Source: Antedon mediterranea (taxonomy: Eukaryota; Animalia; Echinodermata). From it: DNA of 64,000 nucleotides. Shown piece by piece: positions 7,233 to 33,004 of this stretch (its first letter is position 1; each line of letters opens with the position of its first letter). The stretch spans positions 17,109,648 through 17,173,647 of the forward strand of contig NC_092673.1 of assembly GCF_964355755.1 (NCBI RefSeq). Reading direction: 5' to 3'. A model generated the notes under the pieces. It searched no databases. It was not told where the DNA came from and saw only the letters and a list, made by a program, of their open reading frames with translations. The position numbers and the translations under genes were made by a program.

Positions 7233-7787
7233 AATCATTTGAAGATTCTCCGACAAAACCAACATCTTGGGAAATGTCAGACTTACAAACCAAGTTCAAC
7301 AACCTCAAATGGGATCTTGGCAAACACTATGATGGGGAAAGATACCTTTGGCTAAAATGTTGCTTATTTGATGTTATTCCTAGAGCAGACCTCACACGTA
7401 CTGATTTCATAGCAACTGATCTGTTCAATGTGCTCCATGACAACAGTAAAATCAAACCGGATGATGTCACCATCCTTTTTGAGGTTGCCGAATTATCAGG
7501 TTTGCAGCTTGCTGTAGATCTTGTAAAGCAGTATATGGAAGATAACAACGTCAAAGGTACTGGTGACAAGTTATCCTCTTACCGGAAACTCTTATTTAGG
7601 GCTCTGAAAGAAGTTGGACCAGTCGAGTTAAAAGATGTCGTTGCTTATTATGACCTGCGAAGATTTGGTTTTCAAAACATGTGGGACATTGTATTTTACT
7701 TGGAAAGTGAATTACAGCTTGAGGATGAACCATCAAAATTAAATGCATTTGCAGATCGTCTTTGAAAAAGAGCGCATAATATTTTAT
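7233..7787 (+). CDS. Exon encoding tandem death effector domains (module 1), with an in-frame stop near its end
   Basis: KFNNLKWDLGKHY..LKCCLFDVIP..DLFNVLHDNSKIKPDDVTILFEVAELSG followed by KLSSYRKLLFRALKEV..WDIVFYLE resembles caspase-8/cFLIP-type DED1-DED2. Acceptor tatacag, donor gtaagt at 7788. CTT TGA AAA at 7760-7768. Confidence 0.75.
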
Positions 7788-10700
7788 GTAAGTATTTTAT
7801 TTTTTATTATTATGATAAATGTTTTTGTATTACTGTACAAGAATAAAGATTAGATTGATCACCAAGCTATGCTATGAAAACAGTTTTTCTTTCTATACAA
7901 CTATTCGTTTTGTATTTGATGCACAAATTTTACCTCTAAATTGTAGGTGCGTCTTTATATACACAGGTCACTTCCTCACGCACACCAAAAAGCCACACAA
8001 AGTTAACACTACAGCAGTAGCCTACAACAACTCTTACTGTAGGCCTAGCTAGTTAGTCTTTTTTTTTTTATTGCAAACATTTCTTGCCTAGAGGATCGAT
8101 CACCACATAGTATTAAAGAATTTTTTAATTTAACAGTAAATTTTCATCCTACGTATTAATTAATATTTACAGTATTTGCATGAGGTATTCTACCCAGGCC
8201 TTCACCTACTCTCTACTCCTCAGAACTCGTGCATGCGTAACTAGATCAGATACAATAAAAACACAATTATGGGAGGGTCCTTTAATTATGGTAATTATCA
8301 AATTTTAATTACACAATAAATAAATATGTCCCTTGATCACTGTGTTTTTATTGTTATAATTACAGTTTTATTGTATCGTCCTAGTTGACAGGAGCTGGTC
8401 AAGCACATCACAAGATGACAATTTTATTACTTTTGCCTTTCCGCTACACCCCTGTTATACTTATTTTTTTGTTATGTAGAAGATTGAAAATAAAAATAAA
8501 TAAATAAGATTTTCGTAAAATTAATAATGATATTGCTGGTTTATTATCAGCCCTCATCATTTAGATTGATTTAATAAAATGGTCATACCTACAAACAAAG
8601 TATATATTTAAATAATATGCTTAATTATGATTGTTAATAAATGTAGGCTAATAAAAGTAATTAAAGAAATGTGGGGATTTCTCTTTTTGTGGAAAGTTCA
8701 TTGAAGTAGAAGATGCCTGATACGATGTAATAAAGGCAATCAAACGAAATTACATCATCTTGATTCTAATAAATAGATCTGAAATATTATTGTTTTATAA
8801 TAAAATGTCATTTGTTGTATTCGATTGAGACTTTTACCGTTGAGTACAGTTTTTCCGTTAAGTACTTATTTAACGGAGTATTTTGAGCGTTGAGATTGTT
8901 CTTAACGAAAAACCTTGCGTTGTCAACGTTTTCTATTCGAATGAATTTCTGTTGAGCACAAATTTACAATTCGAATACAAAAAGTACTCAACGAATGTTT
9001 ATGTTAACAACGAAAGTTCCCATTCGAATACGACAATTGATATCATTGCTTTGATTGTAAAATCTTTTAATTTCGACCTAGAAATAAGTGTGTCATAAAA
9101 AATACTGATATTTCAGTCTCTTTTTGTATTTCATTATATGCTGTACCATTTTTGCTCTGTAGGCATGAGCTCATGGCCCAAACTGAAACACATATATTGG
9201 AAAGAATAAACTAAATTTAAAACAGCTTAACAAGTAACACAAATGTTATTTTTTAACTGCAAAATTAAAAAATCTTTTGGTTTAAATGTTATTACTAATT
9301 ATACTTGGTGAAGTAATTAATTTGACATCCAAGTCATTGCATTAAGATTCAAGAACATAATTCTTTATAGAGATAATAAATTATTTAATTCACAAAAACT
9401 GTAGAAAGAATCTAGATTTTTAGCTTTACATTCAAGTAGTGTAGATGAAGCTTGGTGGTTAACATGCTTGCCTTCCAATCCCAAGGTACGGGATTCAATC
9501 CTGACTTCCAATTCCACTCCCTGAGCCTCAAGTTTATCAATCCCGTAATAGGCGAGTTGCTTGCCGTTAGATGCGTATGAAATAAAAAAAAAAAAAAATT
9601 GGTGATTTTGCTTTATTGTTAATATTTTACTTTGTTCACTCTCACAAATGTGTTTCTTTAAATATTACTTTGTTATCAGTCGAAAAGGATATTCCATCTG
9701 CTATTGCTGTTCATGGTACAGACATTAAGGAAGCTTACACTAAGGCCTTGAAAGAGGGATCTGTCAAAATCAATCTCGGAATGCTTAAAGTGATTGGACA
9801 GGAAGGAGTAGGTAAAACATGCCTCATAAATGCCTGTCTTGGAAAGAAGTAAGTACTAGTTAAAGGACAGTGAAATGAACTATGAAATATGCGTGTTAAC
9901 TATTAAACAAGAAATATTTCTTACAAAAAACGCTGCTCGCTTATTGAAAAATATTTTTTATTTCAAATGTTTTTGAATGTGTCATTTTATTCTCACATAC
10001 TGTAATAGTTATTTTACCTGAAAAAATGTAATTTAAAGCAACAAATACTTAAATTGTCTGTCAGACAATGGTTTTTGGGTTTCTTTTCTTTTTTTATATG
10101 TGAATAAATATTATTTTTTTGTTACAGAAGTGAATACTCAATTTCTGTCACTTTAGTTAATTTTATTGCTAAGGTCAAATCTGGGGGTCACTAGGTCACC
10201 CTAGATATTTCAATTGTGAAGTATCCTATTACAAACACAAACTTTAATGGACTGTTTCGATAATAATTCAATGAATATCTGACAGTGAATATACCAGATG
10301 ACATGTCCTAATAGACTCTTTCCCAGACGTTTTTTGGGTCTACTGTAGCAGCTAGAATCAATAAGTCATAGTGGAGTTTCCATTTTCACAAAACTGTCTG
10401 TCCTTAGAACTATAACTGCTGCTTGCTTTAGCTTCTGATTGAGAAGTCCTAATGGGACGTAGCGGGCTAGAGCAGCAGCGTGAAAATTATGATTCATAAT
10501 GTTTACAGCACGTAAAATTGACCCAAGTTCAGTGTTGGTTTCAAATGATTTTCACTTCAGATTTAGCCCAAGCATAATGTTTACAGCACTAAGTGACTCA
10601 AGTTCATTATTGGTTTCAAATGATTTTCACTTCAGATTTAGCCCAAGCATAATGTTTACAGCACTTAAAAGTGACCCAAGTTCATAATTGGTTTCAAATA

Positions 10701-13700
10701 ATTTTCAATTCAGATTTAGCCCAAGCATAATCTTTACATCATTTAAAAATGACCCAAGTTCACTATTGGTTTCAAAATAATGTTCACCTCAGATTTAGCC
10801 CACAGCACTTAAAAGTGACCAAAGTTCACTATTGGTTTCAAATGATTTTCACTTCAGATTTAACCCAAGCATATTAATGTTTACAGCACTTAAAAGCGAC
10901 CAAAGTTCACTATTGGTTTCAAATGATTTTCACTTCGGATTTAACCCAAGCATAATGTTTACAGCACTTTAAAAGTTCCACATATTGATTTCAAATTATT
11001 ATACTTCAGATTTGAGAAGGAGCATAAAGTTACAGATGGCATAGCAGTGATAAGAACTGTAACCACAACATGGACAGAAGATTATGACGATAGTGGTAAA
11101 CATAAATTAATTTAGCTTTAGTATTTTTGTTATCCTTCTTGCAGTGAATTATGATAAACTATTAACAGATAAATTGGAGATCAATACCTCTACTGACATA
11201 CAGTAGTATATTGTTGGATACTGTATGTTGATATGAACAGTCAAGTAACTTGACTGATTTCTGCATGATTTTTTTTTCCATAATAAATATTAACATTAGG
11301 AACTCCCAGATCGGTAAAATTATTCCGTTGACTACCTAAATTTAAGTTTCAATATTAACCACTAATTGATGTTTAGTTCCATTCCAAAATTGTTTATATC
11401 TACTAAGCTATCTTCTTTGTTTTCTACTCTTACTCCACCCTCTATTAACCAACCTGAGCCACCTTTGTTTTTATTTCTTTTATTCCAGTATATATATTTC
11501 ATGCAATTTAATCATCAAATATCAAGTTATTCACTTAAATCAAACCTAGGGCATACAGAAATGGAAAACTTTGTTTTTTGTTTTTTTCAGGTAATCCCTC
11601 AAAACAGTATACAAAAGTTGTCGCTGACAAACTGAGAGCAAAGAAAACTGAAAACGTATGTCAACAACATTTTATTAAAAACATTAAAATAATACAAAGG
11701 GAATTTCTACCATTATTACTAGCCAAAACTGAAGGCTATATTTTGTTCATGATCAATGGGACTTTAAGTGGATAGTTTTCAATTCTTTTACAATCAAATC
11801 AAAAATAATGTGTTTTGGAAAGTAAATGTATTTTCTATTATATTAAGGTAAATTAGAAGAACATTAATATCTTCTGTGACTATTTATAAGTTTTGTGTTC
11901 ATTTTATGTGTTAGGTTGTTCAGAAACCCCATACAGATGATGTTGGGGTCTACGATGATGATGTTAATCACAACAATAATGATATTAATAGTGATGACAA
12001 CCACAACAATGATATCCAAAACAGTGATATCAATTACAACAATGGTGATAATGAAGACAACCACAACAATGATGACAACCACAACCACAACAATGATGAC
12101 GACAACCACAACAATGACGACAACCACAACAATGATGACAACCACAACAATGATGACAACCACAACAATGATGACAACCACAACAATGATGACAACCACA
12201 ACAATGATGACAACCACAACAATGATGACAACCACAACAATGTTGACAACCACAACAATGATGATGACAACAACCACAACAATGATGATGACAACCACAA
12301 CAGTGATGACAACCACAACAATGATGACAACCACAACAATGATGACAACCACAACAATGATGACAACCACAACAATGATGACAACCACAACAATGATGAC
12401 AACAACCACAACAATGATGACAACAACCACAACAATGATGATGACAACCACAACAATGATGACAACCACAACGATGAAAATGATGACAACCACAACAATG
12501 ATAATAATCATGAAAAACAGAGCAGTGGTAATGATTATTTTTTTGTAACTTTTTTAAACAATAGTTGTAAAAATGATGTAATATCGATGATAAACCTCTT
12601 TAATGACTGTAATATAACATGTGCAATCCTGGGAGTTAATTGGAAGGTAATACTGTATCAGCTGTATTAGAAATGTTATTGTTCTTTACAAGAAGTAATA
12701 ATTATTAGTTACAAATTAATTTGTATTTCTAGTAGAAGTATTTTATAACCTGACTAAAGGACTAAAGAATTTAATTGTATTTATATGATTAAATTCAAGT
12801 AAAATAATCACAACTGCTATACAATTTATAAAGAATGAGTACAACAGAGATAATGATAATTGTACGCACGCGCTCCAGAGATCAAATTGATACGCCCTTA
12901 ACTTTAAATATATGGATTATATATATGGATTTACAAAGCGGGATCTCAGGAGACATACTTTTACATATATAAACATCACAGGCACATAATAAATTCTAAA
13001 CAGCCCGGTGATATACTGAAATTTAATTAATTAATTTGAAACAATAAAGATGAGGAAATCTATGCATGATAAGGAGTGCATGTGGTGTATTTACAACAAA
13101 AATCTGTTTTAGCTACAGGTACTGGCATTCCTGTTGATACAGATCAGCAGTTAGATAAAGATGTAATTCAGGATATTGAGGAAAATAAGGAGGAAACCTT
13201 GAAAGACACGTTTAACATCTGGGATCATGGCGGACAATTGATATACCATGGTCTACATCGTGTAAGTTATGATATATGTATTTTTCTGTTTATTATACAT
13301 GGTATTCATAAACATAATAGTAACATTATTATTGATATGCAGCCATTGCTCAAATATCTGCACAAAGGCTCTGTAAGAAGTATTCAATTAGTTCAATACA
13401 AAAACTACAGTATGTTGGCAGTTTGACTGAGAAATGTAGTAACCTATGGAAATACAAATATACAGTTCATTTTAGTGAAAAAATCTTGCTAGTATTTACT
13501 TACTTGTCTTCTCATCTGCCACTTGGAAGGTACATGACAGTCGTCTTCCTCCACACTTCTATTTAGTGCTGCTTCTTTTAGTTCAGATTATGTATTTATA
13601 TTGTTTACTCTATCTAGAATATCTATCCTTTTCCTTTCTCTTCTTTTACCACCATATCTTTTCTCTCACAATTTTTAGTAGTCCTTTAATTCTATGTCAT

Positions 13701-16700
13701 ATTCCTTTGCTATCCTTTTTATTTGCCTTTCCTCTATCTCAATCAATATGTCATCATTCTCTTCTGTGCTGAGTATGTTGTGTTTTTAACATTTTTCTCA
13801 AGCACCACATCTCAAAAGCATTAATCGTGCATACTTCTTTATCTGTCGTCCTGTTTCACATCAATACATACTGCAGGTGACACACATGACTTTAGTTTTT
13901 CTATATTTGATATTTATTTAATAATTGTTTTATGCTTCATTTATTCTATCCATTAGTATTATTATTCTTTGACAATTCACTTTTAAAAGCTAGCCAAAAA
14001 TTGCTATTTACAGTAATCTTTTTATGAAAAATGATTTTGTTTTTAATCTGTACAAATTATAGTTTTTTAGGTGACTTATTGTATAGCTTTAGGAAAATTT
14101 ATGCAAAAATATTGTTTATGAATTTGTACCAGAGAAGAAGTGTTGCCTAGAAAGAGTAATACAAATTGTATTTATCAGTTTAATCAGTAAAATACTTGCT
14201 TCTTGCAGATGTTCATGACATTACAAGCACTTTATATTGTAGTGTTCGATCTCAGTGTAGACCTTGAGAAGCGTGCTATTGTCATTGATCCTAATGGAGT
14301 AAGTATTTCTAGGCCATGTAAAGTAATATATAGTATTGTAGTTATTGTGGTGGAAAAGTCTTCTTGAAAAAAGACATATTCTATACATTGCAAAGACTTC
14401 TGTTCAAATATTTTGTTACCAAGCTAATCGTGGATAAAATCATTAAATTGTGTGATTTTATTTTTTCAGGTTAAACGTGAACATCATTGGTCCAACCTCC
14501 AGTTCATATTATCTTACATCCTGTCAGTTTATTCTCATAGTCGTATTTTGGGAAAAAACAAAGCAAAGGGAGTTCACAAACCAACTATCCTTATTGTGGG
14601 TACACATACGGGTAAGCTTGGTAAGACTGAAAAAGAACAAAATGATGAGGTAATACTACTACTTCTATGTTTACGTTTACTGAAATTATTAACTAGCAAG
14701 AATACATTGCAGGTTTATAAGCAAATTAATGTAAAGAAACTGACAACTGGAATAGTGTATCAATTAATTTATATATATTATTATTTATTATAATTCATAA
14801 AGAAGTTTTTGAATATTAATTAGAATAAATTACAGTAAATTGACCCATGTCCTACATTTTTTATTATTAGTCAAAAAAGGTATTTAAAAAGCTTCGACAT
14901 GCACTTAGAGAGAAAGTGTATGAAGAACATGTCTACCACAAATATTTTGCCATCGAAAACAGTGAAGAAACAACAGATGATAGCTTTAGTGAACTGAAAA
15001 AGGTTATTGATGAGTTTATGTTAGATTTAGAAAAGCTTGTTCCTTTGAAGTGGATGCGTTTTCGATGTGACATACATAAACTAAGGAGAGAAAAACACTT
15101 TTCTTTGTGTCCTGTTGAAGAGGTAAATTTACGTTAGTGTTTTGTTTTCAGAATAGAAATGTGTTGAAAATAATGAAATCTAAAAAAGCATAAACAAGAG
15201 AATCTTCCCACAAAAACAATATTGATTGCTAATATGGTCCTAATCATGTCTGAAAGAATCATGAGCCAGACCACTTGTAATACCTGGAATATTCACTGCA
15301 ATGTTACCTCAGTGATGGCGCCAGGGAGGGTTAGTTGGCTACGGGGGCTCTAGCCCCTGGTCGGGGAGCCTAGAATATGCCCCAGCAACCACTACAGCAA
15401 AATTATGTTCACGATCTATTGTTTGTCTGTTCACCAATTTTTTAATTTACAATTAACCCTTGGAGTACCTAAAATACACATTTCACTGTATGCCTACATT
15501 TTTAAACAAAAAAAAACATTTTATTTTCGTTTAGCCAACATCTTTATTTAAGTTATTACATACTTACTTACATATTTCATTAACTTCTCATCGTACAATA
15601 TGGTACGCACGCATATACATCTTGGAAATAAACTGATTTCACCTATGGAAAATGGTCTATACTTGCGGATGCATTCCCCTCCAAATAAAAGCCAAATTGG
15701 CCACCTTTTTAGGCCTCTAGGCCTGATATTTTTTAAATATAAGTGTCATTTTTGTAGATTTGCAGCTCTAGTTTTCAAAATTTTCATTTCGTTTCATATT
15801 TCGAAGTATACAGTCAGTGCATTGTATAGGGACCTAAGAGCTCTATTTTTTTTTTTAGCTCAGTCCCAACCATGAGGTAGGGCTGGTCCTGGAGAAATAT
15901 ATATATATTTTATATAATCAAAAGATTTTATCCTGTAAAGGACAACAATGTTGTTACAAATGCATACCTACCTATGATTTCATATTTTATTTAAATCTGA
16001 ATAGTAATAACATTTTTCTTTAGCTTAAAATGCTAGCAAGTGAGAATGGTATTGCAGATGAATCAATCCTTCTTACCTTCCTGTATGATCTTGGTGAAAT
16101 TGTTTACATGCCTGACAACAAATTATTGACAGATAAAGCAGTGTTAGATCCAATGCAGCTAGTGGAAATTGTTACTGCTTTTGTAACAGTCATTACACCT
16201 GAAATTCCAGTAAGTAGGTTCATAAAAAATTTAATTCAGTGTTCCTTGGGGAATAGAGGTATATGTGAATTCCTATAGGCACTGTAGTATCAAAAGCAAT
16301 ATCTGACAGTTACATAGAGTGGTATATTGCATATTAGATGTGAAATATTAGATGTGTATGGGCTAAACTATGTCATTTCATCTATAAGTATTTATCCATA
16401 TTATGTTTTTTTTTAAACATAATTCCTGCATCCCCTTCAGATTCTAACACAAAATTATAAGTATGGCTAGTTAGTGGTGTTTTTTTTTAGCTTCCCATGT
16501 TTAGGAAAGCTTTTGACGATGGAAAGAATTTCAAGTTCCTTGTAGCACTGATGATTCAATTGGGTTTCATTTGCAAGAGGGAGACAACCAGCAGCCAAGA
16601 TAGGGCAAGTACATCTACAGTAGGTTTTGTTACCTTATCTTTTCTAACATGTTTTGCATGCAATATTATGTATAAATAATGATTTTTGGTATGATAAATA

Positions 16701-19700: not shown

Positions 19701-22700
19701 TAGACAGTGGCGTTATTAAAGACAGCTGCATACCCACCTTAACTAGCACCATGGAGCTAACTCCAGTGATTTCAAGATATTTACCAATTACTTCATGTTT
19801 TTACTGTATCTATTGTAAATGTTATTGCTGCATACCCCACCTTAACTAGCACCATGGAGCTAACTCCAGTGATTTCAAGATATTTACCAATTACTTCATG
19901 TTTTTACTGTATCTATTGTAAATGTTATTGCTGCATACCCCACCTTAACTAGCACCATGGAGCTAACTCCAGTGATTTCAAGATATTTACCAATTACTTC
20001 ATGTTTTTACTGTATCTATTGTAAATGTTATTGCTGCATACCCCACCTTAACTAGCACCATGGAGCTAACTCCAGTGATTTCAAGATATTTACCAAATAC
20101 TTCATGTTTTTACTGTATCTATTGTAAATGTTATTGCTGCATACCCCACCTTAACTAGCACCATGGAGCTAACTCCAGTGATTTCAAGATATTTACCAAA
20201 TACTTCATGTTTTTACTGTATCTATTGTAAATGTTATTGCTGCATACCCCACCTTAACTAGCACCATGGAGCTAACTCCAGTGATTTCAAGATATTTACC
20301 AAATACTTCATGTTTTTACTGTATCTATTGTAAATTTTATTGCTGCATACCCCACCTTAACTAGCACCATGGAGCTAACTCCAGTGATTTCAAGATATTT
20401 ACCAATTACTTCATGTTTTTACTGTATCTATGGTAAATTTTATTGCTGCATACCCCACCTTAACTAGCACCATGGAGCTAACTCCAGTGATTTCAAGATA
20501 TTTACCAATTACTTCATGTATTTACTGTATCTATTGTAAATGTTATTGCTGCATACCCCACCTTAACTAGCACCATGGAGCTAACTCCAGTGATTTCAAG
20601 ATATTTACCAATTACTTCATGTATTTACTGTATCTATTGTAAATGTTATTGCTGCATACCCCACCTTAACTAGCACCATGGAGCTAACTCCAGTGATTTC
20701 AAGATATTTACCAATTACTTCATGTATTTACTGTATCTATTGTAAATGTTATTGCTGCATACCCCACCTTAACTAGCACCATGGAGCTAACTCCAGTGAT
20801 TTCAAGATATTTACCAATTACTTCATGTATTTACTGTATCTATTGTAAATGTTATTGCTGCATACCCCACCTTAACTAGCACCATGGAGCTAACTCCAGT
20901 GATTTCAAGATATTTACCAATTACTTCATGTATTTACTGTATCTATTGTAAATGTTATTGCTGCATACCCCACCTTAACTAGCACCATGGAGCTAACTCC
21001 AGTGATTTCAAGATATTTACCAATTACTTCATGTATTTACTGTATCTATTGTAAATGTTATTGCTGCATACCCCACCTTAACTAGCACCATGGAGCTAAC
21101 TCCAGTGATTTCAAGATATTTACCAATTACTTCATGTATTTACTGTATCTATTGTAAATGTTATTGCTGCATACCCCACCTTAACTAGCACCATGGAGCT
21201 AACTCCAGTGATTTCAAGATATTTACCAATTACTTCATGTATTTACTGTATCTATTGTAAATGTTATTGCTGCATACCCCACCTTAACTAGCACCATGGA
21301 GCTAACTCCAGTGATTTCAAGATATTTACCAATTACTTCATGTATTTACTGTATCTATTGTAAATGTTATTGCTGCATACCCCACCTTAACTAGCACCAT
21401 GGAGCTAACTCCAGTGATTTCAAGATATTTACCAATTACTTCATGTTTTTACTGTATCTATTGTAAATGTTATTGCTGCATACCCCACCTTAACTAGCAC
21501 CATGGAGCTAACTCCAGTGATTTCAAGATATTTACCAATTACTTCATGTTTTTACTGTATCTATGGTAAATGTTATTGCTGCATACCCCACCTTAACTAG
21601 CACCATGGAGCTAACTCCAGTGATTTCAAGATATTTACCAATTACTTCATGTATTTACTGTATCTATGGTAAATGTTATTGCTGCATACCCCACCTTAAC
21701 TAGCACCATGGAGCTAACTCCAGTGATTTCAAGATATTTACCAATTACTTCATGTATTTACTGTATCTATGGTAAATGTTATTGCTGCATACCCCACCTT
21801 AACTAGCACCATGGAGCTAACTCCAGTGATTTCAAGATATTTACCAATTACTTCATGTATTTACTGTATCTATTGTAAATGTTATTGCTGCATACCCCAC
21901 CTTAACTAGCACCATGGAGCTAACTCCAGTGATTTCAAGATATTTACCAATTACTTCATGTATTTACTGTATCTATGGTAAATGTTATTGCTGCATACCC
22001 CACCTTAACTAGCACCATGGAGCTAACTCCAGTGATTTCAAGATATTTACCAATTACTTCATGTATTTACTGTATCTATTGTAAATGTTATTGCTGCATA
22101 CCCCACCTTAACTAGCACCATGGAGCTAACTCCAGTGATTTCAAGATATTTACCAATTACTTCATGTATTTACTGTATCTATTGTAAATGTTATTGCTGC
22201 ATACCCCACCTTAACTAGCACCATGGAGCTAACTCCAGTGATTTCAAGATATTTACCAATTACTTCATGTATTTACTGTATCTATGGTAAATGTTATTGC
22301 TGCATACCCCACCTTAACTAGCACCATGGAGCTAACTCCAGTGATTTCAAGATATTTACCAATTACTTCATGTATTTACTGTATCTATTGTAAATGTTAT
22401 TGCTGCATACCCCACCTTAACTAGCACCATGGAGCTAACTCCAGTGATTTCAAGATATTTACCAATTACTTCATGTATTTACTGTATCTATGGTAAATGT
22501 TATTGCTGCATACCCCACCTTAACTAGCACCATGGAGCTAACTCCAGTGATTTCAAGATATTTACCAATTACTTCATGTATTTACTGTATCTATTGTAAA
22601 TGTTATTGCTGCATACCCCACCTTAACTAGCACCATGGAGCTAACTCCAGTGATTTCAAGATATTTACCAAATACTTCATGTTTTTACTGTATCTATTGT

Positions 22701-25700
22701 AAATGTTATTGCTGCATACCCCACCTTAACTAGCACCATGGAGCTAACTCCAGTGATTTCAAGATATTTACCAATTACTTCATGTTTTTACTGTATCTAT
22801 TGTAAATGTTATTGCTGCATACCCCACCTTAACTAGCACCATGGAGCTAACTCCAGTGATTTCAAGATATTTACCAATTACTTCATGTATTTACTGTATC
22901 TATTGTAAATGTTATTGCTGCATACCCCACCTTAACTAGCACCATGGAGCTAACTCCAGTGATTTCAAGATATTTACCAATTACTTCATGTTTTTACTGT
23001 ATCTATTGTAAATGTTATTGCTGCATACCCCACCTTAACTAGCACCATGGAGCTAACTCCAGTGATTTCAAGATATTTACCAATTACTTCATGTTTTTAC
23101 TGTATCTATTGTAAATGTTATTGCTGCATACCCCACCTTAACTAGCACCATGGAGCTAACTCCAGTGATTTCAAGATATTTACCAATTACTTCATGTATT
23201 TACTGTATCTATTGTAAATGTTATTGCTGCATACCCCACCTTAACTAGCACCATGGAGCTAACTCCAGTGATTTTAAGATATTTACCAATTACTTCATGT
23301 TTTTACTGTATCTATTGTAAATGTTATTGCTGCATACCCCACCTTAACTAGCACCATGGAGCTAACTCCAGTGATTTCAAGATATTTACCAATTACTTCA
23401 TGTATTTACTGTATCTATTGTAAATGTTATTGCTGCATACCCCACCTTAACTAGCACCATGGAGCTAACTCCAGTGATTTCAAGATATTTACCAATTACT
23501 TCATGTATTTACTGTATCTATTGTAAATGTTATTGCTGCATACCCCACCTTAACTAGCACCATGGAGCTAACTCCAGTGATTTCAAGATATTTACCAATT
23601 ACTTCATGTATTTACTGTATCTATTGTAAATGTTATTGCTGCATACCCCACCTTAACTAGCACCATGGAGCTAACTCCAGTGATTTCAAGATATTTACCA
23701 ATTACTTCATGTTTTTACTGTATCTATTGTAAATGTTATTGCTGCATACCCCACCTTAACTAGCACCATGGAGCTAACTCCAGTGATTTTAAGATATTTA
23801 CCAATTACTTCATGTATTTACTGTATCTATTGTAAATGTTATTGCTGCATACCCCACCTTAACTAGCACCATGGAGCTAACTCCAGTGATTTCAAGATAT
23901 TTACCAATTACTTCATGTTTTTACTGTATCTATTGTAAATGTTATTGCTGCATACCCCACCTTAACTAGCACCATGGAGCTAACTCCAGTGATTTCAAGA
24001 TATTTACCAATTACTTCATGTTTTTACTGTATCTATGGTAAATGTTATTGCTGCATACCCCACCTTAACTAGCACCATGGAGCTAACTCCAGTGATTTCA
24101 AGATATTTACCAATTACTTCATGTTTTTACTGTATCTATTGTAAATGTTATTGCTGCATACCCCACCTTAACTAGCACCATGGAGCTAACTCCAGTGATT
24201 TCAAGATATTTACCAATTACTTCATGTTTTTACTGTATCTATTGTAAATGTTATTGCTGCATACCCCACCTTAACTAGCACCATGGAGCTAACTCCAGTG
24301 ATTTCAAGATATTTACCAATTACTTCATGTTTTTACTGTATCTATTGTAAATGTTATTGCTGCATACCCCACCTTAACTAGCCCCATGTAGCAAACTCCA
24401 GTGATTTCAAGATATTTACCAATTACTTCATGTATTTACTGTATCTTTTGTAAATGTTATTGCTGATATAAAAACAAGCTACTCAGCTGCTCTTGGCACA
24501 TCGATCTGAAAGTGCATGAATTGTTTATGGTGAAATCAAAGTAAATAATGGCTAAAAGCAGTGACTTTCAGAAAAGAACTGAACTCATCAATTATAAATC
24601 ATGCGCTGACAATAATAAAGATAAAATGGTAAAAAAACAATGTCAGTGTAAAATCTTAAATAGGGACCCTGAGCTAGTAGTTTTAAACTTGTTTACAATT
24701 TAAAAAAAGGTTATTGTTGTTTACAATTTTTCATATATCTACTACTTTTTAAGATGGAAGAAAACCTCCAAAGAAAGAAGAATCAAACCAAGGTAAAGTA
24801 GACATTAATTATGTGTGCCAAAATGGGCATCAATTGTCTTATTCTTATCGAATAATATTCAAATATTAACTGGGTTTAACTGGTTCAAAGATCAAGGTGA
24901 TCAATTTCACAAATAATCACCAGCCATTGTCATTAGTTTAGAATAATGATAAACAAAAACAAACTGTTATAAACACGGAGCTACAAAAGAAATGGTCTAT
25001 ATGGTCTGTCTTTCGTAAATTTAATCAAAAAACCACAATTTGACTATTTTTATTCAGGTATAAATTATTTGGTTTTCAATCCAATTTTTGATCAAACTCA
25101 AAGTGAATAGCTATATGTGACATTAAAATGGCACAAAAAATGTTTAAACATTGTTTTTCAGACTAAATATCTTTAATAATATCTGTTTTTTTAAAGATCT
25201 TTTTAGAAATTGTTACTTCTTTCATTCTACTTGTAATAATATAGATGAAGCCTCTGACATTTTTGTGCATGTTTTTAAAACCTGAATTATATTGATTGTA
25301 TGTCTTTGCATAATATAGACATCTCAGATGAGGATTTCTGGCAACTGTTGACTGATACAGCAGAGTGGTATGATCGACTTGGATATCTCAAGAAATTGAA
25401 ACTTTTATACAAAGACCATCTGAAGAAATCTAGAGTGGAGGTGGAGAGAGCTAATAGTGTTTGGGATCTACTACATGATTTAACAGCCTCTGGAAATTTG
25501 AGTCCATCAAACCTTACTCTTCTATATGACACAATTAAGATAACCGAGCAATTTGGCTTTAGGTCAAATGTTGAGAATCAACCTTCAGAAGATATTAAGG
25601 ATCATGTGGTATCATCGATGTTGACACCTTTCAGACAGAATATTTATCAGCTGGGAGAAGAACTTAAAGAGGATGAAGTATCAAAACTTGATTTCCTCTA

Positions 25701-28700
25701 CAACAAACAATTTGTAAAGAGATATTCAGACAGCTGGAGTTTGATTATGGACTTTGAACATAAAGGGATCATTGATGAGGATTTCACAAAAATGATCAAA
25801 TTTCTTGATGTTTTAGAAAGAAATGGAATGACATGGGCCAGAAAGATTTTCTTTGATGGTTGGTTGGTTTATTTGTTTTTAGTTCATCATCATGGTTCAT
25901 TGTTAAAACATATAGTACATACTGTAGTACACTTCAATCAAGTAAAAGTATTGTAACCAATTAAACATTTTAGGCAGATTCAAATTATTATGATGTCCCT
26001 GTCTGTCTGCTATTATAGTTGATTAAGGATATCAACCAACATTCAGTTAAATGGCAATTAGGCTGAATTGAATGACAAGTTAGTAAAATAACAATAATAT
26101 GCTCAATGAGTCCAATGGAAAATGAACTGAACTGAAAAGTGTGTGTGTATTCCATGATATTATCCCTATACATCAGATTGACCCAAACCTTTGAAACATA
26201 ATAATCTGCATTTTAAATTTGTGAATGCCTCTAAATTCCTATAAAACCCAGTATACCATTTGAGGGTCAAATTAGTACCGACTCTGAGGCTGATTCAGAC
26301 CTTTACTAATGCAAGAGGATCATTAAGTTGTATAAGAAAGCCACAGGTTGAGAGCATACCCATCACCACCTCAGTGCCAATTTATGCAGCCGGACACTTA
26401 AACCATTATAAACTTTTTAGGCAGATTCAAATTATTAGGATGTCCCTGTCTGTCTGCTATTATAGTTGATTAAGGATATTAACCAACATTCAGTTAATTG
26501 GCAATTAGACTGAATTGAATGACAAGTTAGTAAAATAACAATAATATGCTCAATGAGTCCAATGGAAAATGAACTGAACTGAAAAGTGTGTGTGTATTCC
26601 ATGATATTATCCCTATACATCAGATTGACCCAAACCTTTGAAACATAATAATAATCTGCATTATAAAATTGTGAATGACTCATAATTCCTGTAAAGCCCA
26701 GCATACCATTTGAGGGTCAAAGTACCGACTCTGAGGCTGATTCAGACCTTTACTATTGCAAGAGGATCATTAAGTTGTATAAGAAAGCCACAGGTTGACA
26801 GCATACCCATCACCACCTCAGTGCCAATTTATGCAGCCGGACACTTAAACCATTATAAACTTAAGTTTAGATTATATGGCAGCATAAATGTTGTAAAATT
26901 ATAGAGATCAACACTTCTGCCTATCCCAGTTTATTTACATTTCCTAATTAAAAAAAAGTTTCTTTGTGTCAATGACAATTAGCTTACTGAAACACTTCTT
27001 TTAATCATCATCCATCCTACTGTAGGTGGATTGAAAAATCCAGAAGTCATCCAGTAGTCATACTCTACATAATTATATGTATTCTAAATGTATATGTCTT
27101 CTGGTACAGGCATGTCTTTTGGTACTGGCACATCTAGGTCTTATGATGCAAGTGTGTCTTCTGGTGCAGGCGCATCTTCTGGTGCAGGTGTGTCTTCTGA
27201 TGCAGGTGTGTCTTATGGTGCGTAAAAAAACAACATTTCCCGCACAATTTCACATAAATATCTGTATTCTGACAGATTTGCAAAATTTGTAGTTAACATA
27301 TTTTAGACAAACTTCCCAAACAAAAGTTGCGGAAAGAAGTATAAAGAAAAAAAAAGAAATCTTTATAATCACAATGGAACCAATCAAGTTGATGATATAA
27401 CTATTTATTACACCTAAGTATATTCTTGTCATTTTATTGAACAATTGGGTCACATGATGTAAAAATAACTGAACTAAATGTTATATACAATACATGTACT
27501 GCAATTTTGCGGTGGAAATTACTATTTAAATCTTTTTGCTATTTTAGGTTATTTAAAGTTGATGCTTATTTTTGCTTAACAATAAAAATGAATGAAATGA
27601 AAATTAATGTTGGGACTAAAAAATTGATGGTATATTTAACCGCTCTATACCTTTAGATTCAGACTTGCATCAAGATCACTATAGCCGACTGAAAAAAAAC
27701 ATAGCATCCTTAGGTTTAACAGAAAGAAAGAATGTTTCCGGAGACGGCAATTGCTTTTTCTATTGCATACAAGATCAATTGGAAAGAATGCAACTGCCTG
27801 TACAACCTGTAGCAAACATGAGAACTGAAATTGTAAACTTTTTGCAACAATTGGTGAGATTAAAACTTTATACAATACTATACAATAAATGTGCAATAAA
27901 ACATTACTATTATAGGTGTTAATTATTAAACTCTTTACATATTTCAGGATAACAACGACCCACTTAAGGAACATGTAAATGATCATTACCTACATAACCT
28001 TGAACAAGATGGAACTTGGGTTGATGAAGTTGCAGTGCGTGCAATGGCCAGGGTTCTCAAATGCAACATAAGGATAGTTACAAGCCAGAAACAAAGTTCT
28101 GAATCTGGATATTTGTTCAATGACATCAAAGGAAATTTGAACTCTGATGACCAGCAGCTTCTTCTTGGTCTGATAGATGAAGATCATTATGTTAGTTTAG
28201 GTAGGATATATGGACCTCTAGATCCCCCGAAATTGTTGTACTCTTATACTTTAAAAATGTCAGTACCATTACTATTTTGGGGTTATTGTCACCGGCTAGT
28301 CATCCATTCATAGAAGTACTAATGTAGTAGCCTACCTGTACGGTGACCATAGAATGTGACCCGAGGCATGACTAACTACGACTTTTAGATGATAGAAAGT
28401 TGAGAAAAAATGTTACGAGTAGTTGTACGACATGAAGATGTTTATGAAATTATGTCAATAATGTTTACACACTAGGCATACAATAGTAATATTCTTAAGG
28501 GGTCATGGTACAGGATTTGGCACTTAAGAATTACGTTTTCTCGGTGGGGTAAACGTACTTATTGTATTGCCCAAGGTTATATTGATGTACTCGATTATGC
28601 TAATTAAAATGTTAATTAGCGCTAATTAATGGCTTTCTTAAGTGGACTATAGGTACAGGAGTTGACACTTAAGAATGACGGATCTTCAATTAGACTCTAA

Positions 28701-31700
28701 AAATAAACATTTTTGCATTGTTTCACATGTGTACTCATTATGTTAATTAAGTCTAGGTGGGACATATATTGATCTTTGACCCTTTCTTAAGGGGTCATGG
28801 TACAGGATTTGGCACTTAAGAATTACGTTTTCTCGGTGGGGTAAACGTACTAATTGTATTGTCAAAGGTTTCATCGATGTACTCGACCATGCTAATTAAA
28901 ATGTTAATTAGCGCTAATTAGTGGCTTTCTTAAGTGGACTATAGGTACAGGAGTTGACACTTAAGAATGATGGATCTTCAATTAGACCCTAAAAATAAAC
29001 ATTTTAACATTGGTTTCATTTATGTACTCAATTATGCTAATTAAATCAAATTTTGGGGTATTTTGAGCGCCCCTCCCTAGAGTTGGTACAGGGGCGGGAA
29101 CTTAAGAACGGCCGTTTGATGGTCCCTGGACCCCACTTGACATATTCTATGCCTCAGACCTTTTGTACTCGCAATGCTAAACAAATCTTCATGGGCTCCC
29201 GGATTATACTAGTAGAATCATTATTGATAATCTATACGTTGTTACAACATGCTGTTATTAGCTGTGATATCTTCATTCCTCTTACCAGTAGTAGTACTAT
29301 CAGAATCATTATTGATAATCTATACATTGTTACAACATGCTGCTATTAGCTGTGATATCTTCATTCCTCTTACCAGTAGTAGTACTATCAGAATCATTAT
29401 TGATAATCTATACATTGTTACAACATGCTGCTATTAGCTGTGATATCTTCATTCCTCTTACCAGTAGTAGTACTATCAGAATCATTATTGATAATCTATA
29501 CATTGTTACAACATGCTGTTATTAGCTGTGATATCTTCATCCCTCCTACCAGTTGTACTAGCAATTTATAATTTATTTAATAATGTCAAGATAGTTAAAA
29601 TTAAAACAAATGTTAATGTTGGAAGTTCAATGTTTAAATAGGCCATATATTTATAAAAACATATTCTTATATTTTAATAGGTAATATATAATTTTATCTT
29701 TCAAAAACTTGTTTGTGTATTAATAGTTTTAAGTACAGTATTACAATAGTTTTTTCTATGGAAAGACTTTAATATGTGGATAAGGTTTGGATTATCACTA
29801 CAATGCAAGAACGTAGACACAACATAAGTAATTTGACCAATGACAAGTGAAGGATTGGATAGGTCTCATATTAGCTGTGTATTGCAACCTATATCTTTGT
29901 ATTGCATCCATGTGAGATGCTCAAGTGATTATAGTTAAACAATGTATGCAGTGGAACTGTCAATATTCCACCACAGACTGTACAATGGCATTGTGTACTA
30001 TAAACTTTTTTCTAATTAGTAAATGTACATCTCATTTTAATCATTTTTAGGCAGTGATGATAAGGACCAAAATGAAGGCACATCATCCAGTCACCAATCC
30101 ACACCAAGAGAAGGTAAGTTACTAGTGGATAAAGATTATGATATGAGAAAGTCTCTCAACCTTACAACTTTACTTCCTTTATGAAAACACATGGTGTACT
30201 GGTAACCTGACTTTACTAGTGTTTATTTGCACTCTGCACACCTTCAAACAATATATAATATAATAATAAAAACCTTTAAACAATATAATCATATAGTATA
30301 GTATGCAACACAAGAACGTAGGCACAACATAAGTAATTTGACCAATGACAAGTGAAGGATTGAATAAGCTCAGATGAGCTGTCACTTGTTGTAGATTACT
30401 CGCATAGCAATTTTATCTTTGTGCTCAAGTGATTAGATAGGTAAACATTGTATGCAGTGGATACCTCTTGTAAGTCCCCCCTCCCCCTATCAGCTGAATC
30501 CGTCATAAGCAGACACCTCTATAAAATACTTTTTCTGGACCCAAGGATGTCCACTTATAGAAGGTTAAACTGGAATATTTTTTATTTTATTTGCAGATGA
30601 AATTGGGCCAACGAAAAGAAAAAGAAGAAAAACAGGTCAAGGTGATTAATTGAAATTAGTATATTTAAACTAAATAGACATAATATACATAATAAACTAG
30701 TAATCAAGTATTTGCCTTTGTTAATGCCAATGACTAGTGCTTTTTATTTTAGCAAAAGATAATTTATCAATGTTCAAAGGCAACAACAGAACTCGCTGTC
30801 GACATAATTCAACAGCACAGACAATTGTAAAAAGGCATTGTGTACTATAAATATTTTCCTAATTTGAAATATACATCTTATTTTGATCCTTTTTAGGCAG
30901 TAGTGATAAGGACCAAAATGAAGGCACATCATCCAGTCACCAATCCACACCAAGAGAAGGTAAGTTACTAGTAGATAAAGATTATGATACGAAAAGAGTT
31001 TCTCAACCTTACAACTTTACTTCCTTTTGGAAACACATTTTATATACGCCTAACCTGACTTTACTAGTGTTTATTTGCACTCTATGCAAACCTTTAAACA
31101 ATATAATCATATATTATAGTGATGATGATATGATACTGACAAAGAAATTGATGTTTAAATGATGAATTTCTAGGATTATATTATTATATAATAAAAAGAA
31201 TAATACTAATTATTAACATAAGATAACAAAATAATGGGAATGGTATTTAGTTTTACTGTTATTTCTAAAGCTGATTATAAGGTTGTGCATGTAGAACATT
31301 ATTTCTATAAAAAAAAACAAGCGAGACAAGGTAGTTAATTCTCCACAATTTATTTTAACATTTTATCAGGTGATTATTTGATCACACCTGTGGTCAAAAA
31401 CGTTTGTGATCACATTTTAAAATAAACTACCTTGTACGTACTTTTTTTTTGGATATTACATATTTTCGTATGCAGCATCATTTATATATTATTTCATAAT
31501 ATTGGAACTTTTTTTCAACCATATAGATTTCTCAGAGGATGATTTTAGACAGTTGATTGCAGACTTTGCAAAATGGTTTGATGATCGTGGTCTCCTTAAC
31601 AGACTACAAGTTCTATTCATAGAAATGGTAGACGACATTGAAGAGTTGAAAAGGGTTACCAGTACAACTGAACTGTTAGCTCTTTTATCTGCGAATGGGC

Positions 31701-32035
31701 AATTGAGTCAAACAAATCTGTCTGTACTGTATGATGCAATAAAAGTAACTAAACAATTTGGCTTTCAGTCAGTCAATAGAGAAAAGCTTCATCCTTTCAA
31801 AAATATCAAGAAGCGTAAGGTAGCTTCATTTTCAGCACACACAAAAAAGATTTTTAATCTTGGAAAAAGTATTAGTGATTCAGATGTAAAAACTCTTGAT
31901 GGGCGATACAACTTCCCTGTCCTTAAGGGGTATACTGACAGCTGGAGTTTAATTTTGGATTTTGTTCCTCGAGGGTTGCTGAGTAAAGACAAAATTAAAT
32001 CTGTTAAGAAGATGTTGAAAGATGAGAAAAAGTAG
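7233..32035 (+). CDS. Multi-exon tandemDED-Roc-COR-tandemDED-OTU-tandemDED protein (ROCO-family GTPase fused to a deubiquitinase); may be a pseudogene or null allele because of TGA at 7763-7765
   Basis: Hand-spliced exons, all AG/GT with matching phases: 7233-7787, 9680-9848, 11010-11095, 11591-11655, 11915-12527, 13113-13261, 14209-14298, 14470-14649, 14871-15122, 16024-16209, 16491-16619, 16871-17173, 18606-18677, 19361-19574, 24754-24792, 25319-25858, 27110-27217 (uncertain), 27657-27853, 27948-28200, 30051-30113, 30597-30641, 30897-30959, 31527-32035 (TAG). Total 4,880 nt. Candidate ATG at 7274, but upstream exons may exist. Confidence 0.75.
8812..9036. mobile_element. Small MITE-like element
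   Basis: Imperfect TIR TTGTTGTATTCGATTGAGACTT / AAGTTCCCATTCGAATACGACAA with internal CGTTGAG/CTCAACG repeats. Confidence 0.5.
9446..9598 (+). mobile_element. tRNA-derived SINE
   Basis: tRNA-like head TGGTGGTTAACATGCTTGCCTTCCAA..GGGATTCAATCC (A/B-box-like), an unrelated body, then AATAAA and a poly-A tail. Confidence 0.6.
9680..15122 (+). CDS. Roc (Ras of complex proteins) GTPase domain exons
   Basis: G1 LKVIGQEGVGKT, G2 EHKVTDGI, G3 IWDHGGQLIYHGLHRMFM, ALYIVVFDLS strand, G4 ILIVGTHTG, G5-like YFAIEN, then VPLKW at the COR boundary. Confidence 0.88.
10312..10485 (+). repeat. Short dispersed repeat (second copy at ~60754-60925)
   Basis: Both copies start TAGACTCT..CCCAGACGTTTTTTGGGTC and end GGGAC.TAGC.GGCTAGAGC.GC.GCG.GAAAA. 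Confidence 0.7.
10495..11035 (+). repeat. ~78-bp minisatellite, ~7 units, ending on the acceptor of exon 11010
   Basis: Unit CATAATGTTTACAGCACTTAAAAGTGACCCAAGTTCACTATTGGTTTCAAATGATTTTCACTTCAGATTTAGCCCAAG. Confidence 0.9.
11915..12527 (+). repeat. Coding 18-bp minisatellite exon encoding (DDNHNN)n, ~27 units, inside the Roc domain
   Basis: Unit GATGACAACCACAACAAT. Exon bounded by gtgttag and gtaatg, 613 nt, phase 0 to phase 1, matching its neighbours. The D/N/H frame is stop-free and unit-length variants are multiples of 3. Confidence 0.8.
13496..13850 (-). mobile_element. Degenerate RTE-type LINE 3' fragment
   Basis: Minus strand INAFEMWCLRKML and ELKEAALNRSV, ending in a (TAAG)n-like tail; several stops. 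Confidence 0.65.
16024..19574 (+). CDS. COR domain exons plus Cys-rich C-terminal segment
   Basis: LLTFLYDLGEIVYM..AVLDPMQLVEIVTAFV, FLVALMIQLGFIC, SFFVPLRL and YYDFKGYLPDVLFPYMI are COR-like motifs. Last exon reads CILCEC..CQHEKLTCSK. Confidence 0.82.
18520..18557 (+). mobile_element. Helitron-like 3' end (hairpin ending CTAG|T)
   Basis: CTAGAGGG..GCGAGCGAAGCGAGC..CCCTCTAG followed by T. The same design occurs on the minus strand at 51666-51702. 5' end not located. Confidence 0.45.
19725..24465. repeat. Intronic 103-bp satellite, ~46 near-identical copies
   Basis: Unit GCTGCATACCCCACCTTAACTAGCACCATGGAGCTAACTCCAGTGATTTCAAGATATTTACCAATTACTTCATGTWTTTACTGTATCTATKGTAAATGTTATT. Period measured at 19827, 19930, 20033. 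Confidence 0.97.
25319..25858 (+). CDS. Exon encoding tandem DEDs (module 2)
   Basis: DISDEDFWQLLTDTAEWYD..KLKLLYKDHL..WDLLHDLTASGNLSPSNLTLLYD..LTPFRQNIYQLGEELKEDEVSKLDFLY..WSLIMDFEHKGII. Phase 1-1, 540 nt. Confidence 0.8.
25968..26861. repeat. Intronic tandem duplication, 2 x ~447 bp
   Basis: TTTAGGCAGATTCAAATTATTA..AAACCATTATAAACT occurs twice with few differences. Confidence 0.92.
27657..28200 (+). CDS. OTU-family cysteine protease (deubiquitinase) domain, two exons
   Basis: Cys box VSGDGNCFFYCIQDQL, central DGTWVDEVAVRAMARVLKCNIRIV, His box LLLGLIDEDHYVSL. 94-nt phase-0 intron at 27854-27947. Confidence 0.88.
28330..29210. mobile_element. Probable DNA-transposon fragment with two ~292-bp internal repeats
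   Basis: TTCTTAAGGGGTCATGGTACAGGATTTGGCACTTAAG at ~28492 and ~28784. Right end ..GGCTCCCGGATTATACTA (TAG terminus on the minus strand). No matching left terminus found. Confidence 0.45.
29207..29555. repeat. 88-bp minisatellite, ~4 copies
   Basis: AGAATCATTATTGATAATCTATACATTGTTACAACATGCTG..CTTACCAGTAGTAGTACTATC repeated. Confidence 0.9.
30456..30572. mobile_element. Degenerate Tc1/mariner-pogo-type MITE
   Basis: CAGTGGATACCTCT ... AGAAGGTTAAACTG imperfect TIR with ATAAG..GACAC subterminal motifs. Confidence 0.4.
31527..32035 (+). CDS. Terminal exon encoding tandem DEDs (module 3), paralogous to module 2
   Basis: DFSEDDFRQLIADFAKWFD..GQLSQTNLSVLYDAIKVTKQFGF..YTDSWSLILDF aligns by eye with the 25319-25858 exon (ISDEDFWQLL, GNLSPSNLTLLYDTIKITEQFGF, YSDSWSLIMDF). 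Ends in TAG. Confidence 0.8.
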
Positions 32036-32137
32036 AGGTGACTTTGGATTGGTTTATAGTTTACCATTAGTGCAATTGATATAACTATGCAAGCAAACAA
32101 TGGACTGCAATAACATAAATAATGAAAATAATAATTA

Positions 32138-32746: not shown

Positions 32747-33004
32747 TTTTGGAAATATTAATCACTAGAAACTTTCCAAATTGAGCTCTCATTTCTTTAA
32801 CGATATAATTGTAATATTATTATTGAATAAGCAGCCGTTTCTTTAGCGATATAATGTCCTGTATTGTAATATAATGTATATGTATCGTACCTCAGTGTAT
32901 GTATTGTAATATCACAATGCAGGTAGTAAGTACACTATTGTCTGAGCAATGAGCAACCGTTTATTTGTCAATGTAATGTTAGCATATTTGTTTGTACAGA
33001 TACT

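What the first reader, a model, noticed from the sequence alone, without database searches (positions are those of the whole stretch)
7233..32035. Single-chain DED-ROCO-DED-OTU-DED protein: a death-fold GTPase with its own deubiquitinase
Seen: the scattered ORF fragments join into one phase-consistent exon chain. A 39-nt phase 1-1 exon (24754-24792) bridges the 4.7-kb satellite intron between COR and the second DED pair. Established: Roc-COR proteins (LRRK, DAPK1, MFHAS1 types) are multidomain signalling GTPases; tandem DEDs build caspase-8/FADD/cFLIP filaments; OTU enzymes (A20, OTULIN) edit ubiquitin in death-receptor and NF-kB complexes. I know of no characterised protein combining three DED pairs, Roc-COR and an OTU protease. 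Inference: a lineage-specific innate-immunity or cell-death platform in which GTPase-controlled dimerisation gates DED assembly and local deubiquitination.
Basis: partly seen in the sequence, partly recalled or inferred. Interest (0 to 1): 0.9.

Follow-up and report, generated by a model that had tools for sequence, protein, structure and literature searches.

The report
Broken crinoid death-domain GTPase-deubiquitinase gene
This gene, likely from a feather star, lines up exons for three pairs of cell-death adaptor domains, an LRRK2-type GTPase switch and a ubiquitin-cutting (OTU) domain, but this copy carries an early stop codon and an internal deletion, so it likely makes no full-length protein, and whether the OTU part is ever spliced onto the rest is untested.

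Summary
The domains and the in-phase exon chain are real; the intact single chain is not. Twenty-three GT-AG exons read as DED pair, Roc, COR, DED pair, Ser/Gly, OTU, DED pair. Contigs of four runs mostly read GGA there; only run X1 also holds the T. COR also lacks 22 residues present in 21 of 21 covering relatives. Nearest proteins are from the crinoids Antedon and Anneissia, where DED-Roc-COR-DED is already annotated. None of 49 fetched relatives has OTU. A contig of a probable RNA run splices the 39-nt exon to DED2, but no joint into or out of OTU was shown, and the Ser/Gly exon can end in its own stop. Best reading: a recently broken, exon-shuffled copy of an expanded crinoid DED/ROCO family, whose intact form would be a nucleotide-switched death-fold scaffold, possibly with its own deubiquitinase. 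The scan's earlier notes hold no look-alike of this locus. New variant, moderate interest.

The parts
7233..7787 (+). DED pair 1 exon (phase 1 acceptor and donor; first Met 7274); contains the stop
   Evidence: Pfam DED E 0.052, below cut-off; 82-85% to P0047/P0040; starred clade
7763..7765 (+). in-frame TGA, codon 164; GGA (Gly) in other copies
   Evidence: T>G: X1 348.5 of 491.4, X6 69.5 of 69.5, X5 677.1 of 677.1, X9 14.8 of 14.8; 6 of 7 relatives Gly, 1 Thr
9680..15122 (+). Roc GTPase, 8 exons (9680-9848, 11010-11095, 11591-11655, 11915-12527, 13119-13261, 14209-14298, 14470-14649, 14871-15122); G1 GQEGVGKT, G2 TDGI, G3 WDHGGQ, G4 THTG
   Evidence: 70-78% to P0002/P0005/P0045
11915..12527 (+). 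exon with an expanded Asn/Asp/His microsatellite (12050-12502) between G2 and G3; G2-G3 spacing 281 residues against 105-149 in four relatives
16024..19574 (+). COR, 5 exons (16024-16209, 16491-16619, 16871-17173, 18606-18677, 19361-19574)
   Evidence: COR-A E 2.9e-5; 84% to P0005 over COR-B; relative P0005 folds like LRRK/CtRoco
16491..16619 (+). COR-A exon lacking 22 residues that relatives keep (a helix end, a strand and a helix in the P0005 model)
   Evidence: (21 of 21 covering relatives hold the segment)
19725..24465 (.). 103-bp satellite, 46 copies, inside the intron after COR
24754..24792 (+). 39-nt phase 1-1 linker exon
   Evidence: (X6 joint to 25319, GT..AG, depth 16.5)
25319..25858 (+). 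DED pair 2 exon (phase 1-1)
   Evidence: (Pfam DED 46.8 bits)
27110..27225 (+). Ser/Gly exon: either phase 1-1 with a weak donor at 27217, or terminal with TAA at 27223-27225 (AATAAA at 27581)
27657..28200 (+). OTU domain in two exons (27657-27853, 27948-28200), phase 1 in and out; Asp-Gly-Asn-Cys with Cys at 27752, His at 28185
   Evidence: Pfam OTU 33.3 bits; OTUD3 E 0.022; X9 contig on 27947-28176 with 11 other letters
30051..30959 (+). three phase 1-1 linker exons (30051-30113, 30597-30641, 30897-30959)
   Evidence: X6 joints 30113-30597 and 30641-30897; 89% to P0045
31527..32035 (+). DED pair 3, last exon, TAG 32033-32035
   Evidence: E 0.0015, below cut-off; 86.5% to P0044, 80% to P0045

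Best explanation
The locus holds in-phase exons for three DED pairs, Roc-COR and an OTU domain plus a stop at codon 164 and a 22-residue COR deletion, and it is likely a recently broken, exon-shuffled copy of an expanded crinoid DED/ROCO gene family that likely makes no full-length protein. Shown: every domain block enters and leaves in intron phase 1, and the three DED pairs sit in three separate clades, each beside a different Antedon gene, so the gene is a mosaic and not an internal triplication. Inferred origin: unequal recombination among phase-1 cassettes joined a P0047-type DED exon, a P0005/P0002-type Roc-COR-DED core, an OTU cassette and a P0045/P0044-type tail; two lesions then hit this copy, and the stop would send the mRNA to nonsense-mediated decay. 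Inferred working of an intact version: it has no LRR, ankyrin or other sensor repeat, so it would act as a scaffold, not a receptor. Nucleotide-dependent Roc-COR dimerisation would cluster its six DEDs to seed or cap caspase-8/FADD-type DED filaments, and the OTU cassette, when spliced in, would trim ubiquitin on the recruited complex.
For: Phases and stop. Stop present in X1 contigs and GGA in all listed contigs of X6, X5, X9. Gly in 6 of 7 DED1-type relatives. COR segment in 21 of 21 covering relatives and structured (pLDDT about 79-85) in the P0005 model. Mosaic: per-module best matches differ and the DED tree (33 rows, 1 short match dropped) places DED1, DED2, DED3 in separate starred clades. 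End branches 0.06-0.13 against a median of 0.28, so decay is recent. Family with swapped partners (NACHT, ZU5, HEPN, Roc-COR, ankyrin, Death), 11 of 15 hits on one 36.2-Mb contig. OTU keeps Cys and His, has strong acceptors (88th and 99th percentile among local AG), and a 95% identical copy occurs in a run labelled organism B. GTP-dependent dimer model for ROCO proteins: PMC4104024, passages.
Against: No joint into or out of the OTU exons, and none for 7787-9680, among the rows shown (15 of 20 joints shown; 15 of 37). None of 49 fetched relatives has OTU, and a direct search with the OTU exon found no longer protein (weak by the tool's own note). The Ser/Gly exon has a weak donor (72nd percentile) and its own stop. 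Contigs cannot separate the other allele from paralogs, so 'GGA elsewhere' does not prove an intact allele of this locus. The COR deletion was not checked in reads. G4 reads THTG or THKG in this subfamily, without the Asp that reads guanine in Ras-like GTPases (role of the Asp recalled), so the GTP switch is not assured. No function of any family member has been tested.
Confidence: 0.5

Rival explanations
1. Two units, not one: the transcript ends in the Ser/Gly exon (TAA 27223-27225), giving the already annotated DED-Roc-COR-DED type, and OTU-linker-DED3 is the remnant or separate end of another gene brought next to it.
For: In-frame stop 6 nt after a weak donor, AATAAA at 27581 before the OTU acceptor. 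In Antedon the same tail follows Roc-COR directly, without DED2 or OTU (P0045, P0044). 0 of 49 relatives have OTU.
Against: No start exon for a second gene was found between 25900 and 30050. The OTU acceptors are good and in the right phase. AATAAA is common in this AT-rich DNA (19 hexamer sites of two kinds in 25800-33000).
Confidence: 0.25
2. The copy is functional in pieces: the stop yields a 163-residue DED-only protein acting like a cFLIP-short type decoy, or an in-frame donor at 7706 splices around it, or translation restarts at Met 206 just before the P-loop; or the DED1 exon ends a separate upstream unit.
For: Donor 7706 is phase 1 and scores in the 91st percentile. Met 206 precedes G1. 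Annotated relatives begin at Roc (P0005, P0045) or carry the DED1-type exon after COR (P0040, P0047).
Against: Donor 7706 would cut 27 codons from the second DED. The COR-A deletion remains in any downstream product. No upstream coding exon matched in 1-7200. The stop replaces a conserved Gly.
Confidence: 0.13
3. The OTU exons are a transposon relic (Ginger or Helitron type) lying in an intron and unrelated to the gene's product.
For: Ginger1 transposases and some animal Helitrons carry PF02338 OTU, and Ginger genes can have GT-AG introns (PMC2836005, passages). A 29-nt inverted pair brackets the Ser/Gly and OTU exons.
Against: None of the 17 ORFs of 55 aa or more in 25900-30050 looked like an integrase or Rep/helicase by eye (3 of them scanned with Pfam, no relevant hit). 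Phase-1 splice sites fall at both domain edges. Such inverted pairs also occur in 4 of 8 control stretches, and one arm is ordinary duplicated intron sequence.
Confidence: 0.07
4. The stop is an assembly error or a recoded codon (selenocysteine, read-through) and the chain is intact.
For: All listed contigs of three of four runs read GGA.
Against: About 143 of 491 depth units in X1 carry the T (X1 may be the source library). Relatives have Gly or Thr, never Cys. The COR deletion is a second, separate lesion.
Confidence: 0.05

Closest known systems
Antedon mediterranea XP_071948801 (P0002), DED pair-Roc-COR-linker-DED pair, uncharacterised RefSeq model
   Same: 69% identical over 780 columns from Roc through DED2, same 13-residue linker; DED2 is its sister in the tree
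   Different: its first DED pair is another clade; no OTU, no third DED pair, no stop, no COR deletion; ends in a hydrophobic tail
Antedon mediterranea XP_071947399 (P0045) and XP_071948805 (P0044), Roc-COR-linkers-DED pair
   Same: 83-85% identical over the linker exons and DED3
   Different: the tail follows COR directly; no DED2, no OTU
DAPK1 and placozoan CARD/Death-Roc-COR proteins
   Same: Roc-COR joined to death-fold domains; lineage-specific expansion (at least 17 ROCO genes in Trichoplax, with CARD and death domains: PMC4104024, passage)
   Different: DEDs in three tandem pairs, no kinase, no repeat sensor, possible OTU
Caspase-8 / cFLIP / MC159 tandem DEDs
   Same: best fold matches of the DED2 model are these tandem DEDs, though weak (best E 0.017, none at 0.001)
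   Different: no caspase domain; DED pairs are single phase 1-1 exons reused across many genes
OTUD-type OTU deubiquitinases (OTUD3, viral OTU)
   Same: GDGNC Cys loop and HY motif; best solved-structure match of the Cys exon is OTUD3 (E 0.022); Pfam PF02338
Brown-algal ROCO expansions and amphioxus death-fold shuffling
   Same: exon-shuffled candidate immune genes with many pseudogenes (PMC11378527, passages); DED-NACHT and other new death-fold fusions (PMC2575513); death and DED domains enriched among dispensable lancelet genes (PMC12373286)
   Different: here whole domains (DED pairs, Roc-COR, OTU) are the shuffled units, not LRRs

Membership tests
ROCO proteins | Roc domain with G1, G2, G3 motifs | tested here: met
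   GQEGVGKT, TDGI, WDHGGQ; relatives at 70-78% pass Pfam Roc
ROCO proteins | G4 with guanine-reading Asp (THxD; consensus recalled) | tested here: not met
   THTG here; THKG or THKA in six Antedon relatives; THRD or THMD in three others
ROCO proteins | COR directly after Roc | tested here: met
   model of relative P0005 matches CtRoco, LRRK2, LRRK1 at E about 1e-12
ROCO proteins | intact COR-A fold in this copy | tested here: not met
   22 residues missing that 21 of 21 covering relatives keep
ROCO proteins | GTP binding, hydrolysis and nucleotide-dependent dimerisation | not testable with these tools
   needs biochemistry
Tandem-DED proteins | two DED profiles in tandem | tested here: met
   DED2: 2 stretches, 46.8 bits over cut-off 35.9; DED1 and DED3 below cut-off but homologous
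Tandem-DED proteins | death-fold structure | tested here: inconclusive
   model pLDDT 61, all helical; top Foldseek rows are caspase-8/cFLIP DEDs, none at E 0.001
Tandem-DED proteins | filament or caspase-8/FADD binding | not tested
   no complex job was sent
OTU deubiquitinases | OTU profile | tested here: met
   PF02338 33.3 bits over cut-off 23.3 for the second exon; both exons give OTU clusters at 0.94 in the Atlas
OTU deubiquitinases | catalytic Cys and His in their motifs | tested here: met
   GDGNC with Cys 27752, HY with His 28185
OTU deubiquitinases | ubiquitin cleavage | not testable with these tools
   needs an assay
Single-chain DED-Roc-COR-DED-OTU-DED protein | open reading frame through all exons | tested here: not met
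   TGA 7763-7765
Single-chain DED-Roc-COR-DED-OTU-DED protein | OTU exons spliced to DED2 and to the tail | tested here: inconclusive
   no such joint among 15 of 20 joints shown; contigs only
Ginger/Helitron OTU | integrase or Rep/helicase ORF and element ends around the OTU | tested here: not met

The most novel reading that the evidence does not exclude
Feather stars assemble death-fold signalling proteins from a kit of phase-1 exon cassettes, and intact alleles or paralogs of this locus express one 1,600-residue chain, DED pair-Roc-COR-DED pair-OTU-DED pair: a nucleotide-switched DED-filament seed carrying its own deubiquitinase as an optional cassette, with null alleles like this one segregating in the population.
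Probability: 0.3. Interest if true: 0.75.

Novelty: new variant of a known kind. Interest (0 to 1): 0.45.

Why it matters
If an intact, OTU-containing form exists, a ROCO switch, DED filament seeds and a ubiquitin editor, which vertebrates supply as separate proteins, would sit in one chain, and one could test directly what a kinase-less Roc-COR controls. Even without OTU, the locus points to an expanded crinoid DED/ROCO/NACHT family that the library searches did not find described. As it stands this copy is most likely a null, which is common in fast-turnover immune families and lowers its value as a reagent.

Tried and rejected
No whole genome is held, so paralogs in this assembly could not be counted. 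No RNA holder is on record; X6 is a guessed RNA run. In one search X6 shows no cover on 27552-28063 and X9 almost none, while the Ser/Gly and DED bins are covered; by the tool's own terms this is no evidence on expression and is not used. The T-bearing depth in X1 (about 143, against 200-260 for neighbouring contigs) may mean one haplotype, but summed contig depth is no copy number, so zygosity is left open. The OTU exon found no longer protein, no solved structure by sequence, and three metagenome loci, two of them chance matches to another protein and one an unrelated OTU-like ORF. The Ser/Gly exon matched none of the 49 relatives. Selenocysteine or read-through at the TGA rejected: relatives have Gly or Thr. 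The 29-nt inverted pair around the OTU block beat 100 of 100 shuffles but occurs in 4 of 8 real control stretches, so it was dropped. The variant rows were classed but are a cut, mixed-paralog list and give no selection test. The spliced OTU domain and the whole chain were not folded. A second fold search (VIA wide) did not complete. No complex prediction was sent.

Full report
1. Observation. Joining exons by coordinates gives 23 exons between 7233 and 32035, all 22 introns GT-AG and in phase. A contig joint moved one donor from 30635 to 30641; the final model has 1610 codons. The order is DED pair, Roc, COR, 39-nt linker, DED pair, Ser/Gly exon, OTU, three linkers, DED pair. DED2 and the second OTU exon pass Pfam cut-offs; single-exon pieces of Roc, COR-A, DED1 and DED3 score below them. 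The first OTU exon holds GDGNC and best matches OTUD3 among solved structures, weakly (E 0.022); both OTU exons give OTU clusters at 0.94 in the Atlas.

2. The chain has one internal stop, TGA at 7763-7765, codon 164, 22 nt before the donor. Contigs of four runs were laid on 7100-10480: at 7763 all listed depth reads G in X6, X5 and X9, and 348.5 of 491.4 in X1; the rest of X1 keeps the T. X1 may be the library the window came from, so this argues against a private assembly slip but is not independent. Six of seven relatives of this DED class have Gly there and one has Thr. A second lesion: exon 16491-16619 lacks 22 residues of COR-A. Of 25 aligned relatives, 21 passed a flank filter and all 21 hold the segment; two more show it but failed the filter, two do not reach it. 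In a model of P0005 it covers the end of one helix, a strand and the next helix at pLDDT about 79-85. It was not checked in reads. An Asn/Asp/His microsatellite widens the G2-G3 gap to 281 residues against 105-149.

3. Source and family. All 4 hits to DED2 and all 15 hits to a three-row DED profile are Antedon mediterranea models; the COR exon found 28 representatives, and the 11 of them looked up are Antedon or Anneissia. The window is therefore inferred to be a feather star, Antedon or close. The family swaps partners around single-exon DED pairs: NACHT, ZU5, HEPN, Roc-COR, with ankyrin and Death versions of the same Roc-COR; 11 of the 15 hits lie on one 36.2-Mb contig. P0002 (XP_071948801) is already DED pair-Roc-COR-13-residue linker-DED pair, 69% identical over 780 columns. 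P0045 and P0044 carry the same tail directly after COR, 83-85% identical. P0047 and P0040 carry the DED1 exon after COR, 82-85%. In a 33-row tree the three DED pairs fall in three starred clades with end branches of 0.06-0.13, median 0.28: a mosaic, recently intact.

4. Which junctions hold. Seventeen of 22 are collinear with P0002 or P0045; one lies inside OTU; four have no outside support. On 24480-32130, run X6 (RNA by guess) shows GT..AG joints 24792-25319, 30113-30597 and 30641-30897 (15 of 20 joints shown). None into or out of OTU was shown, but neither was 30959-31527, which P0045 supports, so the blank says little. X9 (organism B, kind unknown) has one contig on 27947-28176 with 11 other letters and 8 unaligned letters beyond the acceptor, so the OTU exon is not private to this haplotype. 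None of 49 fetched proteins has OTU. With a matrix trained on 18 local introns, OTU acceptors rank in the 88th and 99th percentile, while the donors at 25858 and 27217 rank in the 72nd; the Ser/Gly frame stops at 27223-27225 and AATAAA follows at 27581. Because DED2, Ser/Gly, OTU and the linkers are all phase 1-1, inclusion, skipping and early termination are all possible.

5. How it most likely works. Shown: modules, phases, lesions, mosaic ancestry. Inferred: this copy is a null, the early stop lying far upstream of later junctions and so inviting nonsense-mediated decay (own knowledge). Inferred for an intact version: no sensor repeats, so a scaffold. ROCO proteins are proposed to switch by nucleotide-dependent dimerisation (PMC4104024, passages); the P0005 model matches CtRoco, LRRK2 and LRRK1. 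Dimerisation would cluster six DEDs, whose weak best fold matches are caspase-8/cFLIP tandem DEDs, and an included OTU would trim ubiquitin on the complex. G4 lacks the usual Asp in this subfamily, so nucleotide preference is open. Odds: broken chimeric unit with an OTU cassette 0.50; transcript ends before OTU 0.25; functional in pieces 0.13; transposon OTU 0.07; intact as written 0.05.

6. What is known. Death-fold ROCO proteins are known from DAPK1 and Trichoplax. Exon-shuffled, pseudogene-rich ROCO sets are described in brown algae (PMC11378527, abstract and passages); new death-fold fusions in amphioxus (PMC2575513, passages); DED enrichment among dispensable lancelet genes (PMC12373286, passages); DED-based expansions in marine invertebrates (PMC8195603, passages, no occurrence of OTU in the main text); OTU in transposons (PMC2836005, passages). 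PMC5823876 was seen only in a listing. 'Roc-COR' with 'death effector domain' gave 0 papers; ROCO, DED, OTU, COR at 3 of 4 terms gave 2 papers, neither with OTU; searches listed none on this architecture by title or abstract start. The library lacks most subscription papers and no supplements were opened. Earlier scan notes show no look-alike; one search listed other ROCO fusions, unchecked.

7. Verdict. Observation partly confirmed, interpretation partly supported. New variant of a known kind: the DED/Roc-COR family sits in RefSeq but was not found described, and the OTU cassette is new and unproven. Interest 0.45; 0.75 if an intact OTU-containing transcript is found (probability 0.3).

Noticed in passing
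window 832-1525 and 6117-6812: About 700-bp inverted repeats, 94-99% complementary, enclosing 4.6 kb and ending 420 nt before the first exon: a likely foldback element at the gene's 5' end.
   Followed up: no
window 4898-5263, minus strand: 121-aa ORF fragment between 137-nt inverted arms (4754-4890, 5233-5369) that resembles a Penelope-type GIY-YIG endonuclease by recall; Pfam gave no hit.
   Followed up: partly
window 7050-7132: 78% copy of the first exon's donor region (7777-7859) just upstream of that exon, suggesting a lost tandem DED exon.
   Followed up: no
window 35521-50361: About 15 kb of 181-bp satellite that switches orientation at about 43026.
   Followed up: no
window 30051-30959: The 63-nt and 45-nt linker exons form a duplicated unit; X9 has a joint from 30959 back to 30597 and P0045 has two full units, so linker copy number varies.
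   Followed up: partly
window 14470-14649 and proteins P0002, P0005, P0008, P0009, P0032, P0045: An Antedon Roc subfamily has G4 THKG, THKA or THTG in place of THxD, which may loosen guanine specificity.
   Followed up: no
proteins P0049, P0046, P0040, P0001, P0048: The same DED-pair exons are fused to HEPN, ZU5, Roc-COR-ZU5 and NACHT(-LRR) in Antedon models.
   Followed up: partly
window 25955-26862: 447-bp tandem duplication in the intron after DED2; a contig of X6 has one copy only.
   Followed up: no
L003 4518-5597: 360-aa OTU-like ORF on an AT-rich metagenome contig sharing the short motif before the catalytic His; otherwise distant.
   Followed up: no
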